A stretch of DNA of 11,929 bases from a bacterium (GCA_035354435.1 DAOQAY010000090.1:1-11929); one strand, 5' to 3'. Counted from the first letter of the stretch, positions 3,503 through 8,751 are shown. Notes: generated from the letters alone by a model not told the origin. Program-made: numbers and translations.

Positions 3503-4573
3503 ATGAAATATTTTATCATTTGTGCGGTGTTTATCCTTTTTACAGCATGTGAGAACAGTGTTAAGATAAAAGGTGACATTGAATCTGTGAAAGATGCGGA
3601 TATTTCAGTAGCCGATGAAGATACTGATTTTGTACAAGTACCTGATACTAATGATGAAAACATTGCCGATGATGCCGTCGATGAGATAGTTGTTCCTGAT
3701 GACGATACGATCGGTGACGGTTGTCTGACCAACGATGACTGCGGGACTGATACATACTGCCTGAAAGATGCCGGCGTGTGTGATGCAGTAACGGTCGGTG
3801 TCTGCACAGTGCGTCCTGAAAACTGTTTTTATACCCGTGCCATTGAGCCTCAATGCGGCTGTGACAATTATACATACAGCAACGAATGCTGGGCCGGATC
3901 TGCCGGAGCAGTGATCGCTCATGCCGGTGAGTGTGAAGGCGATGTTCTGTGCCGGGATTCCTCAGCATGCAGCATGAATGAATACTGTCAGAAAAAACAA
4001 GGAGTTTGCGATATGGGAATGGGTGTGTGCCGTCCAGCCCTTGAAGACTGTAACGGTCAGGAAGACCCGGTAGTCTGCGGATGCGATCTTAAACAGTATA
4101 CAGGTGAATGTCAGGCCCAACTATCCGGAATATCTGTGAAACACGATGGGGAGTGCAACCGCAATGACGATTCGCTTGTCAGGTATTTCTATGCCGATAA
4201 TGCTGAATCAATAGACGGTTATCTGAAAATTATAGTGTCTCCGGTCGAAATAAAGGAATTTTTTGCGATAGACACATTCCAGGAACAGTTCATGGATAGC
4301 GAAAATTCGGTCATTATCACAGTCCGTTTCTACGAGAAAGGCGATATGAATAAAGATTACGCAGAGTTGCAATACAAACTCTCCATGCCGCTGACACTCC
4401 CCATGGGCGTAGGCTTCGGATATGAAGGAAGTTATCTCAAATGGTTCAGCTTCGACGGCGGGGAACTCGGCGACATGGACGGCACAGTGATCACATACGA
4501 TTATATACCGCTTGACAAAGAAAACGAAGTCTCAACCCTCAGTGTGACCGGACTGAACCTGTCGATGAAGTAG
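3503..4573 (+). CDS. Secreted lipoprotein with an acidic linker and two tandem Cys-rich modules, each ending in a Kazal-type-inhibitor-like motif. The C-terminal roughly 140 aa form a Cys-free domain.
   Basis: GGAGG RBS at 3491-3495 and ATG at 3503. The ORF-track start at 3467 lacks an RBS and overlaps the upstream gene. Signal peptide MKYFIICAVFILFTAC has lipobox FTAC. A D/E-rich low-complexity linker follows. CGCDNYTYSNECWAGSAGAVIAHAGEC and CGCDLKQYTGECQAQLSGISVKHDGEC resemble the Kazal CGSDGxTYxNxC...HxGxC motif. Stop TAG at 4571-4573. Confidence 0.65.
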   Translation: MKYFIICAVFILFTACENSVKIKGDIESVKDADISVADEDTDFVQVPDTNDENIADDAVDEIVVPDDDTIGDGCLTNDDCGTDTYCLKDAGVCDAVTVGVCTVRPENCFYTRAIEPQCGCDNYTYSNECWAGSAGAVIAHAGECEGDVLCRDSSACSMNEYCQKKQGVCDMGMGVCRPALEDCNGQEDPVVCGCDLKQYTGECQAQLSGISVKHDGECNRNDDSLVRYFYADNAESIDGYLKIIVSPVEIKEFFAIDTFQEQFMDSENSVIITVRFYEKGDMNKDYAELQYKLSMPLTLPMGVGFGYEGSYLKWFSFDGGELGDMDGTVITYDYIPLDKENEVSTLSVTGLNLSMK

Positions 4574-4660
4574 AGATCCCATATTTCAAACAAATTCATT
4601 TTTTAAATTGATAATCAAACATCAAAGTTTAGAATATCCTGAATTGATTATTGAAAAATT

Positions 4661-4687
4661 GTAGGGGCGAGATTTATCACGCCCTTT
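4661..4687 (+). repeat. Left copy of a 27-bp inverted-repeat pair (GTAGGGGCGAGATTTATCRCGCCCTTT).
   Basis: Its reverse complement recurs at 6676-6702 with 26/27 identity (A/G at one position). Each copy is itself a GC hairpin. Confidence 0.7.
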
Positions 4688-4689
4688 TT
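4661..4689 (+). terminator. Rho-independent terminator of the Kazal-like lipoprotein gene.
   Basis: tAGGGGCG-agatttatca-CGCCCTt forms a 5-7 bp GC stem with a 10-nt loop, followed by TTTTT at 4685-4689. It lies 88 nt after the stop codon. Confidence 0.6.
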
Positions 4690-4772
4690 GAGTGGATGTT
4701 TAGATGTCGGACATTACTGAAGGGTTTGAAAGAATTAAATGAAAATAGGAGTAATGTTGTGGAGAGAAGGTG

Positions 4773-5741
4773 ATGGTAAGCGAAGAACAATCAAAAAGGA
4801 ATGCAAACATTAGCAGAGAATTATTATTAAAATCGGATTATTTTAAAGACATCGTTAGTTTTGCAGAATATTTGAGAAATTCGCCAGTAATGAACGAATT
4901 TTTGAAGTTCAGGCAGGATTTACAAAAATCTATAGAACCCGTTCTGTCAATGATTCAAAAGATTCAAGACACCGCCAGACCTTATTTGTTGAAAGCAATT
5001 CCTACATTGAAATATTTTGTAATTAGAGACAGTTATTTCTATATTTCAGATGATTGTTTTTTAAAAGAATTGGAAGATAGATACTCAAACACTATAGATA
5101 AAAATATTCTTTTAAACTTTATTGAAGAATTTTATTCCAGAAATAATTATGAAGAGATGTGCAGATTAATTGATGAATTGGACAGTTTCGAGCTTATTGA
5201 AAAAAGGATTCACATAATAAAAAGTGTAAAATCTGTGATTTCAAGTGGTTTAAAAGACACGGATATTGCAAATGTTGTGATACCTGTGATTATTTCGCAG
5301 TTAGATGGAGTAGTTAAAGACTTTTACATTAAGCTGGATCCAGAGATTAGTAAAAAGAAGATATTAAAACATAAAAATGTATTAAGAGAAAATCCCCTAA
5401 TAAACGACATTTCCTTTTCTAATTATATAAATATTCTTCATCCTATTTTCTATCTATTTGAGTTTGAAAATGGCATTAAAAACGAAACGAAAAAAAACGA
5501 AAACAATCACGAAGAATATTTTATTGAAAAAGCTACAGAGGAAGAATTAGAAAATTATGTTTTGAATCGAAATGGAATCATGCATGGAGAAAAAGTAGAT
5601 TACGGCAAAAAAATTGAGTTGATAAGAGTGGTTTTATTTTATGATACAGTTGTTAAATCTGTAACAAATGCAATAAATGATATAAATAAGAAAATATTGG
5701 AAAATAATGAAGAAATAAAAATCGTTGAGGGCGAGAAGTGA
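4773..5741 (+). CDS. Hypothetical protein with a C-terminal HEPN-type Rx4H motif. Candidate RNase effector (Abi/toxin-like).
   Basis: About 322 aa. RBS GGAGAG at 4761-4766, ATG at 4773, and an alternative GTG at 4770. Eyeball GC about 30%. Motif LNRNGIMHGE at nt 5568-5585 fits the HEPN R-[NHQ]-x3-H signature. No Walker A/B motif is seen. There is a 1-nt overlap with the downstream gene. Confidence 0.6.
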   Translation: MVSEEQSKRNANISRELLLKSDYFKDIVSFAEYLRNSPVMNEFLKFRQDLQKSIEPVLSMIQKIQDTARPYLLKAIPTLKYFVIRDSYFYISDDCFLKELEDRYSNTIDKNILLNFIEEFYSRNNYEEMCRLIDELDSFELIEKRIHIIKSVKSVISSGLKDTDIANVVIPVIISQLDGVVKDFYIKLDPEISKKKILKHKNVLRENPLINDISFSNYINILHPIFYLFEFENGIKNETKKNENNHEEYFIEKATEEELENYVLNRNGIMHGEKVDYGKKIELIRVVLFYDTVVKSVTNAINDINKKILENNEEIKIVEGEK

Positions 5742-6583
5742 TGATGGAATCAAAGCTTAGAAATTTGTTAAGATTTGAAGCACAGGAAATAAAAATGTCT
5801 TTTGAAAAGGCGAGTATTGAAGGTCAAGGAACGCCGCAAGAAATTGCTGACCGTAGAGAAGCCGCTTTTGTCTCTTCCTTCTTAAAAAAATATTTTCCTT
5901 TTCCGTATAGGATTGAAAAAGGAAATATTATTGATAGCTATAATAACAGAAGCAATTCAATAGATTGTATTATATTAAACCCATCCCATCCTTACACAAT
6001 AGATCCCAAAAATGAAAGAGCTTCAATAATATTTGCTGATGGTGTCGATTGTGCAATAGAAATAAAGCCAGATCTTGCTAATAACCATGAATTAATTAGA
6101 AGTCTAGATCAGATTAGAAGTGTGAAAAAGTTAAGACGCAAAAGAGACGGATTATTGTTGAAAGGCAAATATAATGATCATCAATTGCTCACAGCGAAAA
6201 CAATTCCTTCTTTTATTTTTGCAGATAGAACATATGTCGATTTAAGGTTATTAATTAGTCAAATTGTAGAATACTTTATAAAGGAAAGAGTTCCTTATGA
6301 CGAGCAGTTTGACTATATCGTTATAAACAATAGAGGTCTCATATTCAATTCAAGAAAGGACTTTTATTGTGATCTCAAACCAACTGAAGGAATTTGTTTT
6401 GCTGAAACACAAGAAGATACAATTGCTACATTTTTATTGTTGCTTAACAATCTGCCAAAATCAGAACCAGCAATTAGCGAGAGTGTTTTGAGCTTTTACC
6501 TTGATAATAGTTTGTATTCTGACAAATTGAAGACCTTTCAAGATATTAACGAAAAAATGCATGCTGTTTTAGGTAAACCTTGA
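5741..6583 (+). CDS. Hypothetical protein with a candidate PD-(D/E)xK (restriction-endonuclease-fold) nuclease motif.
   Basis: About 280 aa. The ATG at 5741 overlaps the TGA of gene A (gTGATGatg), with alternative starts at GTG 5738 and ATG 5744. Strand-turn-strand SIIFAD-GVD-CAIEIK has D at 6038-6040 and E-x-K at 6059-6067. It is preceded by GTPQEIADRRE (helix Glu) and SIDCIIL. There is no nucleotidyltransferase (MNT) motif. Eyeball GC about 30%. Confidence 0.6.
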   Translation: MMESKLRNLLRFEAQEIKMSFEKASIEGQGTPQEIADRREAAFVSSFLKKYFPFPYRIEKGNIIDSYNNRSNSIDCIILNPSHPYTIDPKNERASIIFADGVDCAIEIKPDLANNHELIRSLDQIRSVKKLRRKRDGLLLKGKYNDHQLLTAKTIPSFIFADRTYVDLRLLISQIVEYFIKERVPYDEQFDYIVINNRGLIFNSRKDFYCDLKPTEGICFAETQEDTIATFLLLLNNLPKSEPAISESVLSFYLDNSLYSDKLKTFQDINEKMHAVLGKP

Positions 6584-6595
6584 GCGTCCTTCTTT

Positions 6596-6644
6596 TGATT
6601 CACAGCACATTCCTCTATAATTTCCCCATAGCGAATCTTGGAAG
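6596..6644 (+). repeat. Copy 1 of a duplicated junction segment (TGATTCACAG-cacattcctctata-ATTTCCCCATAGCGAATCTTGGAAG). It contains a perfect TATAAT at 6616-6621.
   Basis: It aligns to 6740-6773 (TGATCACACAG-ATTTACCATAGCGAAATCAAGAAG) with a 14-bp indel that removes most of the TATAAT. Possible -35 elements are TTGATT (15-nt spacer) or TTTTGA (17-nt spacer). Confidence 0.5.
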
Positions 6645-6675
6645 AAAAAGGGAAAACAAATCCAAATTCAAAGAG

Positions 6676-6702
6676 AAAGGGCGCGATAAATCTCGCCCCT
6701 AC
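6676..6702 (-). repeat. Right copy of the 27-bp hairpin repeat, in inverted orientation.
   Basis: The minus strand reads GTAGGGGCGAGATTTATCGCGCCCTTT, followed by CTC rather than a T-run. Confidence 0.7.
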
Positions 6703-6714
6703 GGAAATTCAACC

Positions 6715-6736
6715 GCAAATTCTCTTTAGTAAATAA
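6715..6736 (+). repeat. Direct repeat DR1 (GCAAATTCTCTTTAGTAAATAA).
   Basis: An identical 22-mer sits at 7717-7738, which is the 3' end of the dinD-like CDS (...TANSL*). The DR1 reading frame also encodes ...TANSL* but shows no further similarity upstream. Confidence 0.7.
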
Positions 6737-6739
6737 TCT

Positions 6740-6773
6740 GATCACACAGATTTACCATAGCGAAATCAAGAAG
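6740..6773 (+). repeat. Copy 2 of the duplicated junction segment.
   Basis: See copy 1. It lies immediately downstream of DR1 and upstream of the dinD-like promoter region (TTGACT at 6779-6784). Confidence 0.5.
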
Positions 6774-6858
6774 TTAGATTGACTTTTAAGAAGTATTCTA
6801 TATTGTTTTCCATGTTCTGGGCTAAATATATGGCAATATTTGCAACAAGGAGTCTTAA

Positions 6859-7731
6859 ATGGACAGAAGGCTTATCCAGTCAATGAAATCAATATTTGAT
6901 GAACTTACAAAAAAAATAAATGAGGAAAATATTGAGTTCTGGTTCGCCAGAGAGATCATGGAACATCTGGGATATGCTCGCTGGGAAAATTTTCTGACAG
7001 CCATTAACCGTGCGATTTATTCTTGTATATCAACAGGTACAGATCCAGAAGACCATTTTCGTGGAGTAAAGAAAATGGTTAATATCGGTAGTAGCGCAAC
7101 AAGAGACATAGATGATTTTATGCTTACTCGTTACGCATGCTATTTAATTGCTCAAAACGGCGATCCGAGAAAAGAGGAAATTGCTTTTGCTCAAAGTTAT
7201 TTTGCTTTCCAGACAAGAAAACAGGAAATTATTGAAGATAGAATGCAGCTTCAGTTTCGTATTGAAGCCAGGGAAAGACTAAGAGAATCAGAAAAAACAC
7301 TGTCACAGAATATTTATGAAAGAGGTGTTGATGATGATGGTTTTGCTAGAATAAGATCTAAAGGTGATGCAGCACTATTTGGTGGTAATTCAACTCAGAT
7401 GATGAAGGATAAATTCGGGATTACACAGTCACGGCCTCTAGCTGATTTTTTGCCGACATTGACAATTGCTGCAAAAAATCTTGCGACTGAAATGACAAAT
7501 CATAATGTATTGGAAGAGGATTTAAAAGGCGAAGAATCAATAACTGATGAACATGTGCAGAACAATAAAAGTGTCCGCGAAATGTTGGAAAAACGAGGAA
7601 TTCAACCTGAGAGTCTTTCTCCAGAAGAGGATATTAAAAAACTTGAGCGACGAGTAAAATCAGAAGAAAAAAAATTGGCAAGACAATCTGGTAAATTGCC
7701 AAAAAATAAAACCACTGCAAATTCTCTTTAG
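6859..7731 (+). CDS. dinD: DNA-damage-inducible protein D family protein (DinD-like).
   Basis: 290 aa. The blocks EFWFAREIMEHLGYARWENF, HFRGVKKMVNIGS, LTRYACYLIAQNGDP, AQSYFAFQTRKQE and the C-terminal IKKLERRVKSEEKK track my recollection of E. coli DinD (EFWSARELAPLLDYRDWRNF, LSRYACYLVVQNGDP, GQTYFAIQTRRQE, IKQLENSVKITEKK). RBS AAGGAG at 6848-6853. Eyeball GC about 40%. Confidence 0.85.
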   Translation: MDRRLIQSMKSIFDELTKKINEENIEFWFAREIMEHLGYARWENFLTAINRAIYSCISTGTDPEDHFRGVKKMVNIGSSATRDIDDFMLTRYACYLIAQNGDPRKEEIAFAQSYFAFQTRKQEIIEDRMQLQFRIEARERLRESEKTLSQNIYERGVDDDGFARIRSKGDAALFGGNSTQMMKDKFGITQSRPLADFLPTLTIAAKNLATEMTNHNVLEEDLKGEESITDEHVQNNKSVREMLEKRGIQPESLSPEEDIKKLERRVKSEEKKLARQSGKLPKNKTTANSL

Positions 7732-7738
7732 TAAATAA
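7717..7738 (+). repeat. Direct repeat DR2, identical to DR1 and overlapping the dinD-like stop codon.
   Basis: Identical 22-mer, 1002 bp downstream of DR1. Confidence 0.7.
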
Positions 7739-7744
7739 ATTATC

Positions 7745-7768
7745 CATCCTTCGATGAACTCAGGATGA
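7745..7768. terminator. Weak hairpin between the convergent dinD-like and lipoprotein genes. It is a candidate bidirectional terminator.
   Basis: CATCCT at 7745-7750 and AGGATG at 7763-7768 form a 6-bp stem with a 12-nt loop. There is no clear U-tract on either side. Confidence 0.2.

Positions 7769-7807: not shown

Positions 7808-8751
<944 letters not shown>

What the first reader, a model, noticed from the sequence alone, without database searches (positions are those of the whole stretch)
5568..5585. HEPN-type catalytic motif R-N-G-I-M-H near the C-terminus of gene A
The sequence LNRNGIMHGE fits the HEPN R-[NHQ]-x3-H signature. The polar residue after Arg and the small residue after His are both typical of HEPN RNases (Abi_2/AbiD/AbiF, Csm6, Cas13, RnlA/LsoA-type toxins). 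It lies in a predicted helical, Cys-free, Lys/Glu-rich protein of about 322 aa with no nucleotide-binding motifs. A short motif can arise by chance in an AT-rich, Asn/Lys-rich protein, so this is suggestive rather than proven.
Basis: partly seen in the sequence, partly recalled or inferred. Interest (0 to 1): 0.65.

Follow-up and report, generated by a model that had tools for sequence, protein, structure and literature searches.

The report
Unannotated HEPN-like RNase toxin family
The R-N-G-I-M-H motif is real and is the invariant signature of a previously unannotated protein family, found in bacteria, archaea and prophages, that most likely belongs to the HEPN class of RNA-cutting defence toxins; this adds another family to a well-known class and is not a new principle.

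Summary
The motif is present exactly as described: window 5568-5585 codes for RNGIMH in gene A (4773-5741, 322 aa).

A single occurrence proves little, since R[NHQ]x3H appears in 2.2% of shuffles of this protein. But gene A belongs to a family of at least 234 cluster representatives, and R266, H271 and G272 are invariant in 53 of 53 aligned members.

No Pfam, NCBIfam or PADLOC model covers the family. Its only library match is phrog_28904, of unknown function.

Relatives sit inside type I and type III restriction-modification operons. Others lie beside CBASS, Abi_2 and HipA genes, or behind a Panacea antitoxin.

In the window, gene A overlaps the start of a DUF6602/NucC-core nuclease (gene B). 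The pair is bracketed by 27-nt inverted repeats in an AT-rich islet.

Verdict: a probable new HEPN-superfamily RNase toxin or defence family. RNase activity and any functional link to gene B are untested.

The parts
4773..5741 (+). Gene A, 322 aa (alternative GTG start at 4770). A member of an unannotated family with a HEPN-like core. The N-terminal residues ~4-86 form a long helical hairpin that is not conserved in distant relatives.
   Evidence: ORF and translation. Identical protein P0001 called on 12 contigs. 234 family representatives at E<=1e-3. No Pfam, NCBIfam, PADLOC or PDB sequence hit. Matches phrog_28904, unknown function, at 2.5e-6. AF2 model pLDDT 92.4.
5085..5708 (+). The conserved core domain (residues ~105-312), the HEPN-like region shared by all family members.
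5568..5585 (+). R266-N-G-I-M-H271, the Rx4H motif of the finding and the predicted catalytic Arg/His. It is followed by the invariant G272 and by E273.
   Evidence: Sequence. Column counts: R 53/53; next residue H27/N23/P3; I 50/53; H 53/53; G 53/53; E/D 46/53. In the AF2 model it lies in short helix 266-270 and then a loop, before the final helix 280-320. hhalign aligns it to RnlA R318..H323.
5280..5309 (+). I170-P-V-I-I-S-Q-L-D178-G179 (family consensus IPTLIAQIDG), the second family signature, in helix 162-188. It carries the conserved acidic residue D178, and D183 follows four residues after G179.
   Evidence: P171 53/53, Q176 51/53, G179 53/53, D/E178 42/53, D/E183 47/53. hhalign aligns it to RnlA P-x-L-R255-x-x-E258-G259 with P=0.029. 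RnlA E258 is essential (PMC8266594).
5205..5207 (+). R145, an invariant Arg in helix 140-156 (family consensus R-x-x-I-x-x-x-C). It is a candidate additional active-site or substrate-binding residue.
   Evidence: 53/53. Whether it lies near R266/H271 in space could not be checked, because no model coordinates were available.
5738..5744 (+). The junction between gene A's stop codon and gene B's start (GTGATGATG). The TGA stop at 5739-5741 overlaps candidate starts at 5738, 5741 and 5744, an arrangement typical of translational coupling.
   Evidence: Sequence. Gene callers place the B start at 5741 or 5744.
5741..6583 (+). Gene B, 280 aa: a DUF6602 PD-(D/E)xK nuclease with a NucC-like N-terminal core (D75 ... 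E107-x-K109) and a different C-terminal half.
   Evidence: PF20247 at 2.7e-18. PADLOC PD_DExK 4.5e-16 and NucC effector 6.5e-16, but only over profile positions 2-144 of 244. Family profile against Serratia NucC 7zgv at 1.7e-8, aligning the ID...EVK motifs. D75, E107 and K109 invariant in 21 homologues. 291 homologues.
4661..4687 (+). Left arm of a 27-nt inverted repeat (GTAGGGGCGAGATTTATCACGCCCTTT). It is itself a hairpin followed by a T run.
   Evidence: the repeat finder I1, 96% complementary. Only two copies in the window and in the contig stretches held (~16 kb of the 25-kb contigs), with 0 expected by chance. Hairpin folds at -11.1 kcal/mol.
6676..6702 (-). Right arm of the same inverted repeat. 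Together the two arms bracket exactly genes A and B (a 2,042-bp unit).
6859..7731 (+). A DinD-like (Bro-N) gene, the third gene of the AT-rich islet. It is a neighbour and is not shown to belong to the same system.
   Evidence: NCBIfam NF008573 at 4e-110, PF02498 at 1.6e-11, PADLOC candidate PDC-S13 at 1e-115, phrog_8036 at 1e-84. GC is 26-37% across ~4500-7750 against 42-47% in the flanks.

Best explanation
Gene A encodes a member of a previously unannotated family of the HEPN superfamily.

Its conserved core (residues ~105-312) is a helical HEPN-type bundle. The invariant R266-[N/H]-x-I-x-H271-G272 motif sits in a short turn before the last helix. With the conserved acidic residues D178/D183 of the 'IPTLIAQIDG' helix, and possibly the invariant R145, it would form a metal-independent endoribonuclease site.

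By analogy with RnlA, LsoA, PrrC and Abi-type HEPN proteins, the protein would cleave cellular or phage RNA when activated, most likely as a dimer that brings two Rx4H motifs together. It would act as a toxin or abortive-infection effector that travels in defence islands and R-M operons.

In this window it was acquired horizontally in an AT-rich islet. There it is the first gene of a two-gene cassette, bounded by inverted repeats and translationally coupled, whose second gene is a DUF6602/NucC-core DNase.

Shown here: the motif, its invariance, the existence of the family, the HEPN-like predicted fold, the genomic contexts and the anatomy of the cassette.

Inferred: RNase chemistry, dimerisation, toxicity or defence, and any cooperation with gene B.

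My estimates: HEPN-fold domain with a functional Rx4H site ~0.75; toxin or defence role ~0.6; functional coupling with gene B ~0.35.
For: Motif and family. The motif is confirmed. There are 234 representatives at E<=1e-3. R145, P171, G179, R266, H271 and G272 are invariant in 53 of 53. The residue after the Arg is H or N in 50 of 53. D/E183 is present in 47 of 53. Of 152 representatives, 144 carry Rx4H[GAS].

Profile comparison with an RnlA/LsoA alignment. A local match with P=0.029 puts D178/G179 on RnlA E258/G259. On trimmed domains a single co-linear alignment of 148 columns contains both motifs, with P=0.0084. One of 300 column shuffles reaches that score. RnlA R255, E258, R318 and H323 are experimentally essential (PMC8266594).

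The HEPN criteria themselves come from PMC3710099.

Context of relatives:
- hsdS|A|hsdR
- hsdM-hsdS|A|HNH-like|hsdR
- A|hsdS
- A|type III Mod
- SNF2|A|N6_N4 methyltransferase with overlapping genes
- beside Abi_2 and HigB
- 22 nt behind a CBASS cyclase-NucC pair
- 3 nt behind an MqsA-HTH/Panacea antitoxin-domain gene; Panacea antitoxins neutralise many unrelated toxins (PMC8832971)
- one member fused to a C5 DNA methyltransferase

Cassette. The stop and start codons overlap, 27-nt inverted repeats bracket A and B, and the region is an AT-rich island.
Against: No HEPN-clan Pfam model, or any other curated model, matches any of the 53 members. None matches 10 isolated core domains even at E<=10.

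Foldseek against PDB finds nothing. Profile search against PDB sequences gives only coiled-coil noise.

The hhalign probability is only 4.8%. When the motifs are kept intact in 8-column block shuffles, 19 of 300 reach the observed score.

I had no model coordinates. I therefore could not verify that R145, D178, R266 and H271 cluster in space, or that the topology is the canonical up-down four-helix bundle.

No member of the family has been tested experimentally. The family has no single conserved partner. None of 45 metagenomic loci of gene B homologues has an A-family gene within 5 kb, so the A-B pairing may simply reflect neighbouring genes in a defence island.
Confidence: 0.7

Rival explanations
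1. A and B form one obligate two-nuclease defence system. In this reading the HEPN-like protein A senses infection or licenses the system, or is itself restrained by B. The NucC-core DNase B is then activated through protein-protein contact instead of by a cyclic oligonucleotide, and the 2-kb unit bounded by inverted repeats moves as a cassette.
For: The stop and start codons overlap and the 27-nt inverted repeats bracket exactly A and B. An A-type gene lies next to a DUF6602 nuclease in three independent loci, in both gene orders: the window; L053, where it follows a CBASS NucC; and L112, the locus of gene B's closest homologue at 70% identity, where an A-like gene lies 420 nt downstream. In L051 an HNH-like gene follows the A-family gene.
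Against: None of 45 metagenomic gene B loci has an A-family gene within 5 kb. Homologues of B at 62-69% identity stand alone in contexts that look like mobile elements. Only 2 of ~55 A-family loci carry a DUF6602 gene. A neighbour census finds no conserved partner. A DUF6602 protein, 'Damona', is reported as a defence gene in integron cassettes (bioRxiv 10.1101/2024.07.02.601686). In L053 the nuclease already has its own cyclase. The A-like gene in L112 is frameshifted.
Confidence: 0.15
2. Gene A has a HEPN-like fold but is not a nuclease. It would bind RNA or a nucleotide, or act as a regulator, like Roquin's HEPN domain or the HEPN domains attached to nucleotidyltransferases. An example role would be as a sensor or inhibitor for neighbouring effectors.
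Against: Non-catalytic HEPN domains typically lose the Rx4-6H motif (PMC3710099). Here R, H and the following G are invariant in 53 of 53, with a polar residue after the Arg and a conserved acidic residue upstream. In one locus a Panacea antitoxin-domain gene sits immediately upstream, which suggests a toxin.
Confidence: 0.08
3. [not shown]
Confidence: 0.07

Closest known systems
RnlA / LsoA (RNase LS) HEPN toxins of E. coli
   Different: There is no significant sequence homology. Gene A lacks the two TBP-like N-terminal domains and has a helical hairpin instead. The gene downstream of A is a 280-aa nuclease, not a small RnlB/LsoB antitoxin. RnlA R255 has no aligned equivalent; the A family instead has invariant R145 and Q176. 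The insert between the two motifs is longer (about 87 residues against 58) and contains a beta-hairpin.
HEPN proteins embedded in restriction-modification operons (PrrC/RloC anticodon nucleases, Abi_2/AbiD-F, DUF4145-type; Anantharaman et al. 2013, PMC3710099)
   Same: They share an Rx4H motif with a polar residue after the Arg. The genes are nested between hsdS and hsdR or next to Mod/methyltransferase genes. They are spread across bacteria and archaea in defence islands.
   Different: No Pfam or PADLOC model of these families matches. Gene A has no ABC-ATPase domain as in PrrC/RloC. In this window there is no R-M system at all.
Roquin-1 HEPN domain (PDB 4TXA, 4QIK)
   Different: Roquin is a eukaryotic RNA-binding protein with only 6% identity to gene A. 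It is not known to use an Rx4H catalytic site, and its biology is unrelated.
NucC (CBASS / type III CRISPR effector) and the DUF6602 defence gene 'Damona': comparators for gene B
   Same: Gene B shares the PD-(D/E)xK core with NucC and the DUF6602 domain with Damona.
   Different: Only the N-terminal ~140 residues match NucC. No cyclase or CRISPR locus lies nearby in the window.

Membership tests
HEPN superfamily | A conserved Rx4-6H motif | tested here: met
   R266 and H271 are present in 53 of 53 aligned members. Of 152 representatives, 144 carry Rx4H[GAS], and most of the rest are short sequences of 141-234 aa, probably fragments.
HEPN superfamily | A polar residue (N, D or H) immediately after the conserved Arg | tested here: met
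   Position 267 is H in 27, N in 23 and P in 3 members. The criterion is from PMC3710099.
HEPN superfamily | A conserved acidic residue in an upstream core helix (helix 2) | tested here: met
   D/E178 is present in 42 of 53 and D/E183 in 47 of 53, both in helix 162-188. hhalign aligns D178-G179 with RnlA E258-G259.
HEPN superfamily | A four-helix up-down bundle fold similar to solved HEPN domains | tested here: inconclusive
   [not shown]
HEPN superfamily | [quoted passage not shown] | tested here: met
   The AF2 secondary structure shows short helices 256-260 and 266-270, a loop at 271-279, and then the final helix 280-320.
HEPN superfamily | A significant profile match to an established HEPN family | tested here: not met
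   No HEPN Pfam hit for 53 members at E<=0.01 or for 10 core domains at E<=10. hhalign against an RnlA/LsoA profile gives P=0.0084 and a probability of 4.8%. Controls: 1 of 300 column shuffles and 19 of 300 block shuffles reach the score. HHpred against full libraries was not available.
HEPN superfamily | Metal-independent RNase activity and dimerisation through the Rx4H face | not testable with these tools
RnlA/LsoA (RNase LS) family | NTD and NRD (TBP-like) domains before the HEPN domain, and an RnlB/LsoB antitoxin gene downstream | tested here: not met
   Gene A's N-terminus is a helical hairpin. The downstream gene is a DUF6602 nuclease. There is no significant sequence similarity.
Abi_2 (AbiD/AbiF), PF07751 | A match to the family profile | tested here: not met
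   No Pfam hit. hhalign against the Abi_2 protein of L054 finds nothing relevant.
HEPN-MNT toxin-antitoxin pair | An adjacent minimal nucleotidyltransferase gene | tested here: not met
   The window has no NTase gene. The NTase in L053 is a CBASS cyclase (PDLC00803 at 8.9e-87).
PrrC/RloC anticodon nucleases | An N-terminal ABC-type ATPase domain, with the gene embedded in a type I R-M operon | tested here: not met
   There is no P-loop or ATPase hit. Embedding in an R-M operon is seen for relatives but not in this window.
Panacea (PanA) toxin-antitoxin pairs | A toxin gene directly adjacent to a gene with a Panacea domain | tested here: inconclusive
   This is seen in one viral-contig locus, L116: PF13274 at 9.8e-18, with a 3-nt gap. 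It is not seen in the window.
NucC (for gene B) | A full-length match to NucC and an adjacent cyclase or type III CRISPR locus | tested here: not met
   PADLOC NucC models match only the N-terminal ~145 residues. PDB NucC aligns to residues 30-136 only. The window has no cyclase.
DUF6602, PF20247 (for gene B) | A Pfam profile match above the gathering score, with the D...ExK catalytic residues | tested here: met
   66.2 bits against a cut-off of 27. D75, E107 and K109 are invariant.

The most novel reading that the evidence does not exclude
The 2-kb unit bounded by inverted repeats (4661-6702) is a mobile two-nuclease defence cassette. In it a new HEPN-family RNase and a NucC-core DNase act together, physically and functionally, without any cyclic-oligonucleotide signal. 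More generally, this HEPN family would be a portable 'second-strike' module that plugs into R-M, CBASS, HipA and Panacea systems.
Probability: 0.15. Interest if true: 0.65.

Novelty: new member of a known kind. Interest (0 to 1): 0.5.

Why it matters
If this is right, it adds a widespread and so far unannotated family to the HEPN RNase toxins. The family has at least 234 clusters at 50% identity, in bacteria, methanogenic and other archaea, and prophages. No Pfam, NCBIfam or PADLOC model currently detects it.

That would improve annotation of defence islands. It would also explain orphan genes nested in type I and type III R-M operons.

It gives a clear experimental handle: R266, H271, D178 and R145.

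The tight pairing with a NucC-core nuclease in this window, seen again in two other loci, gives a testable hypothesis about combined RNase and DNase effectors.

It would not change any concept. HEPN toxins in defence islands are well established.

Tried and rejected
- **Single-sequence family scans.** Scans of gene A against Pfam, PADLOC, NCBIfam and PDB sequences found nothing.
- **AF2 with the 2-sequence alignment.** The model was unusable at pLDDT 38. It only became confident with the 53-sequence alignment.
- **Word-indexed homologue search.** It found only one real homologue, and the repeat with the family profile was swamped by low-complexity candidates. The exhaustive HMMER search was what revealed the family.
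- **Locus scans.** The genome scan with the 11 closest sequences found nothing. The 53-sequence alignment was too divergent for pattern design.
- **Fold libraries.** Foldseek against PDB gave nothing. BFVD gave one uncharacterised siphovirus protein. AFDB50 was not available.
- **Plasmids and phages.** tblastn of gene A against both collections gave no match.
- **Direct comparisons.** hhalign against the Abi_2 protein of L054 gave no relevant match. Weak Pfam hits for isolated core domains were unrelated noise.
- **Gene B as a genuine NucC/CBASS effector.** Rejected for the window, because the match is partial and there is no cyclase.
- **The downstream partners in L051 and L052 as gene B homologues.** Rejected: one looks HNH-like and the other like HsdS, judged from sequence motifs, and neither resembles gene B.
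- **A conserved partner gene for the A family.** Rejected by the Pfam census and by clustering of the neighbours.
- **The ~240-aa upstream partner of gut-clade gene B homologues as a hidden A-family or HEPN protein.** Rejected: no family-profile (HMM) hit and no Rx4-6H motif.
- **Inverted repeats at other A or B loci.** None found.
- **RNA genes.** No Rfam family and no tRNA in the window.

Full report
**Observation.** Window 5568-5585 (+) reads cga aat gga atc atg cat, which codes for R-N-G-I-M-H inside ...YVLNRNGIMHGEKVDYGKKIELIR.... The ORF (gene A) runs from GTG 4770 or ATG 4773 to the stop codon at 5739-5741.

It is the only Rx4-6H in the protein. Shuffling the protein 20,000 times gives at least one Rx4H in 18.9% of cases and R[NHQ]x3H in 2.2%. 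The Lys/Glu/Ile/Asn-rich composition is right.

**A real but unannotated family.** Gene A matches nothing in Pfam, NCBIfam, PADLOC or among PDB sequences. The word-indexed search found only one true homologue, P0002 at 47% identity. In it the motif lies in the longest identical block.

An exhaustive HMMER search of 1.84 billion cluster representatives with that two-sequence profile returned 234 proteins at E<=1e-3 and 28 at E<=1e-10. In a 53-member alignment, with identities to gene A down to 17-20%, the invariant columns are R145, P171, G179, R266, H271 and G272. Nearly invariant are L173, Q176, I269, Y277, G278 and L288.

The family signature is R-x-x-I-x-x-x-C ... IPTLIAQIDG-x3-[DE] ... N-R-[HN]-K-I-[ML]-H-G-[ED]-x-L-x-Y-G-T-x-x-N-L-I-R. 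Of 152 representatives, 144 carry Rx4H[GAS]; most of the eight that lack it are short sequences of 141-234 aa, probably fragments.

None of the 53 members hits any coherent Pfam or PADLOC family. Ten isolated core domains give only unrelated noise even at E<=10. The only library family that recognises gene A is phrog_28904, of unknown function: 2.5e-6 for gene A and 2.2e-9 for P0037.

**Fold.** With the two-sequence alignment AlphaFold failed (pLDDT 38). With the 53-sequence alignment it gave a confident model (pLDDT 92.4, pTM 0.79). The model has these elements:
- an N-terminal helical hairpin (4-86)
- helices 110-138, 140-156 (carrying R145) and 162-188 (carrying IPxLxxQxDG)
- an insert of short helices and a beta-hairpin (190-255)
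- short helices 256-260 and 266-270 (the motif)
- a loop at 271-279
- a final long helix, 280-320

**Published HEPN criteria.** These come from Anantharaman et al. 2013 (PMC3710099):
- a polar N, D or H after the Arg
- a conserved acidic residue in helix 2
- variable inserts between helices 2 and 3

The family meets all of these at the level of sequence and secondary structure.

**Link to a characterised HEPN RNase.** I built a five-member RnlA/LsoA alignment from annotated records. Its invariant residues include R255, E258, G259, R318, H319 and H323. Four of these (R255, E258, R318, H323) are experimentally essential (PMC8266594).

hhalign of the family profile against single E. coli RnlA gave as its only local match NRHKIMHGE on ERHSLFHME (R318-H323), which is not significant at E=0.19. 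Against the RnlA profile, the only local match put VIPtLIAQIDG on fPxLRt-EG, so that D178/G179 align with E258/G259 (P=0.029).

On trimmed domains with a relaxed alignment threshold, one co-linear alignment of 148 columns contains both motif pairs (score 21.8, P=0.0084, probability 4.8%). The controls were as follows:
- **Column shuffles:** mean 12.2, with 1 of 300 reaching the observed score.
- **8-column block shuffles, which keep the motifs intact:** mean 18.2, with 19 of 300 reaching it.
- **Reversed profile:** 12.0.

The sequence link is therefore supportive but weak. I do not file gene A as an RnlA-family member, because it has different N-terminal domains and no RnlB.

**Genomic context of relatives.** The closest relatives lie in defence settings:
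- P0002 lies between hsdS and hsdR, inside the cargo of a Tn7-like element that also carries GmrSD genes.
- P0003 lies between hsdS and hsdR, followed by an overlapping gene that looks HNH-like.
- P0004 lies directly upstream of a gene that looks like hsdS.
- P0009 lies upstream of a type III Mod methyltransferase.
- P0006 lies beside an Abi_2 gene and a HigB/HTH pair.
- P0008 lies in an island that also carries a PIN_2 gene.
- P0005 lies 22 nt behind a bona fide CBASS cyclase (8.9e-87) and full-length NucC (6.6e-102).

Forty-four further loci come from many bacterial phyla and from archaea (Methanosarcina, Methanobrevibacter, Archaeoglobus, Bathyarchaeia). A Pfam census of their immediate neighbours shows Schlafen/AlbA_2 (4), AAA_23 (4), HipA (3), N6_Mtase, Type ISP, SWI2/SNF2, ResIII, Methylase_S and HNH (2 each), but no conserved partner.

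Three viral-contig loci add useful contexts:
- **L116:** an MqsA-HTH/Panacea antitoxin-domain gene lies 3 nt upstream of the family gene.
- **L120:** the family gene overlaps both an SNF2 helicase gene and an N6_N4 methyltransferase gene.
- **L118:** the family gene overlaps a HipA kinase gene.

Panacea antitoxins neutralise dozens of unrelated toxins (PMC8832971), so L116 is a single but pointed hint that the family is toxic. One member is fused to a C5 DNA methyltransferase. This is the context typical of HEPN Abi-type and R-M-linked toxins.

**Anatomy in the window.** Gene A's TGA overlaps the start of gene B (GTGATGATG, 5738-5744). Gene B (5741-6583, 280 aa) is a DUF6602 protein (2.7e-18). 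Its N-terminal ~140 residues align with the PD-(D/E)xK core of NucC, including D75 and E107-x-K109, but its C-terminal half does not. No cyclase is present. A DUF6602 gene, 'Damona', has been reported as a defence gene in Vibrio integron cassettes.

A and B are bracketed exactly by a 27-nt inverted repeat, 96% complementary, at 4661-4687 and 6676-6702. It occurs nowhere else in the window or in the contig stretches held, about 16 kb of the 25-kb contigs. Each arm is itself a hairpin.

Together with a DinD-like gene (6859-7731; NF008573 at 4e-110; PADLOC candidate PDC-S13), the pair forms an islet of 26-37% GC between flanks of 42-47% GC that carry housekeeping-type genes such as groESL.

**Is A-B a system?** Evidence for: the translational coupling, the inverted-repeat bracket, and three independent adjacencies of an A-type gene with a DUF6602 nuclease. 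These are the window; L053; and L112, the locus of gene B's closest homologue at 70% identity. In L112 an A-like gene with IPSLFSILEG and NRHWILHG lies 420 nt downstream but is frameshifted.

Evidence against:
- None of 45 metagenomic gene B loci has an A-family gene within 5 kb.
- Homologues at 62-69% identity stand alone in contexts that look like mobile elements.
- A human-gut clade of B has a different, non-HEPN upstream partner of ~240 aa.
- Only 2 of ~55 A-family loci carry a DUF6602 gene.

I put functional coupling at about 0.35. An obligate two-nuclease system is the main rival to 'independent neighbours in a defence islet'.

**Mechanism proposed.** This part is inferred. Gene A is a metal-independent endoRNase of the HEPN type. 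H271 would act as the general base and R266/N267 would stabilise the transition state. D178 or D183 would position the His, as E258 does in RnlA. R145 may bind substrate. The enzyme is probably active as a dimer and acts as a toxin or abortive-infection effector.

None of this chemistry is shown here, and no family member has been studied.

**Novelty and score.** The result is a new family-level member of a well-known kind. It is absent from the curated libraries tested but conceptually ordinary. Interest is moderate (0.5): useful for annotation and easy to test, with some upside if the HEPN and NucC-core pairing proves functional.

Noticed in passing
window 4661-4687 and 6676-6702: A 27-nt inverted repeat (96% complementary) brackets exactly genes A and B, forming a 2,042-bp unit. 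It has only two copies in the window and in the contig stretches held (~16 kb of the 25-kb contigs). Each arm is itself a GC-rich hairpin, and the left one is followed by TTTTT. It could be the terminal repeats of a non-autonomous mobile cassette, or a pair of terminator-like hairpins.
   Followed up: partly
window 6706-6736 and 7708-7738: A 25-nt direct repeat (24 of 25 identical) flanks the dinD-like gene. The upstream copy, immediately right of the right inverted-repeat arm, reads ...N-S-T-A-N-S-L-stop, a relic of a dinD 3' end. This suggests that the A-B cassette displaced or split an earlier dinD copy, or that the two copies are att-like sites.
   Followed up: partly
window ~4500-7750: An AT-rich islet (GC 0.26-0.37 against 0.42-0.47 in the flanks) holds gene A, gene B and dinD. 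It lies between a Cys-rich secreted protein gene and a repeat-containing lipoprotein gene, upstream of groES-groEL. It is probably horizontally acquired. No tRNA and no Rfam family were found in the window.
   Followed up: partly
window 6859-7731: The DinD-like / Bro-N protein matches PADLOC candidate family PDC-S13 (1e-115), a PADLOC type I specificity-subunit model (3.2e-47) and phrog_8036 (1e-84). Like the A family, it appears to be a kind of gene that travels with R-M systems, yet no R-M system is present here.
   Followed up: no
window 7808-8641 (-), repeat tract ~8340-8560: A lipoprotein-like gene (DUF7478) carries a run of GNT/GDT tripeptide repeats that hits the collagen profile. The length of the gene call differs between otherwise near-identical contigs (277, 274, 243 and 211 aa), though some of those calls may be cut by contig ends. 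This could be variation in repeat number.
   Followed up: no
L053 4466-6966: A minimal CBASS, with a 253-aa cyclase (PDLC00803 at 8.9e-87) and a full-length NucC (6.6e-102), is followed 22 nt later by the A-family gene P0005. The A-family gene could be an accessory to the CBASS, or the two could simply be stacked defence genes.
   Followed up: partly
L116 3519-5921; L118 3130-5570 (also L046, L047, L050); L120 1879-7237: In viral or prophage contigs, A-family genes are tightly coupled to three kinds of partner: an MqsA-HTH/Panacea antitoxin-domain gene (3-nt gap), HipA-like kinase genes (4-nt overlap, recurring in Alphaproteobacteria-like loci), and an SNF2 helicase plus an N6_N4 methyltransferase (both overlapping).
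   Followed up: partly
L081, L083-L092, L094, L098 (for example L087 4217-6791): A human-gut clade of gene B homologues has a conserved three-gene layout: an overlapping upstream ~240-aa gene and a downstream 342-aa gene. Neither has a Pfam or PADLOC hit, and the upstream one has no Rx4-6H motif. This is a candidate uncharacterised three-gene system built on DUF6602.
   Followed up: partly
L051 4029-4769: A 246-aa protein with C-x2-C ... S-H-V-I-P-K (it looks HNH-like but has no Pfam or PADLOC hit) lies between the A-family gene and hsdR inside a type I R-M operon. It is another case of an A-family gene followed by a nuclease-like gene.
   Followed up: partly
L021 6509-11363: In Methanosarcina sp. 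2.H.T.1A.6, the A-family gene and a 387-aa gene are flanked by long inverted repeats (at least 74 nt exact) that lie within two inverted copies of a ~300-aa gene. The arrangement resembles a composite transposon.
   Followed up: no
L112 2321-3050: The A-like gene downstream of gene B's closest homologue (70% identity) is split by a frameshift between the IPSLFSILEG and NRHWILHG motifs. This is either a pseudogene or an assembly error.
   Followed up: no
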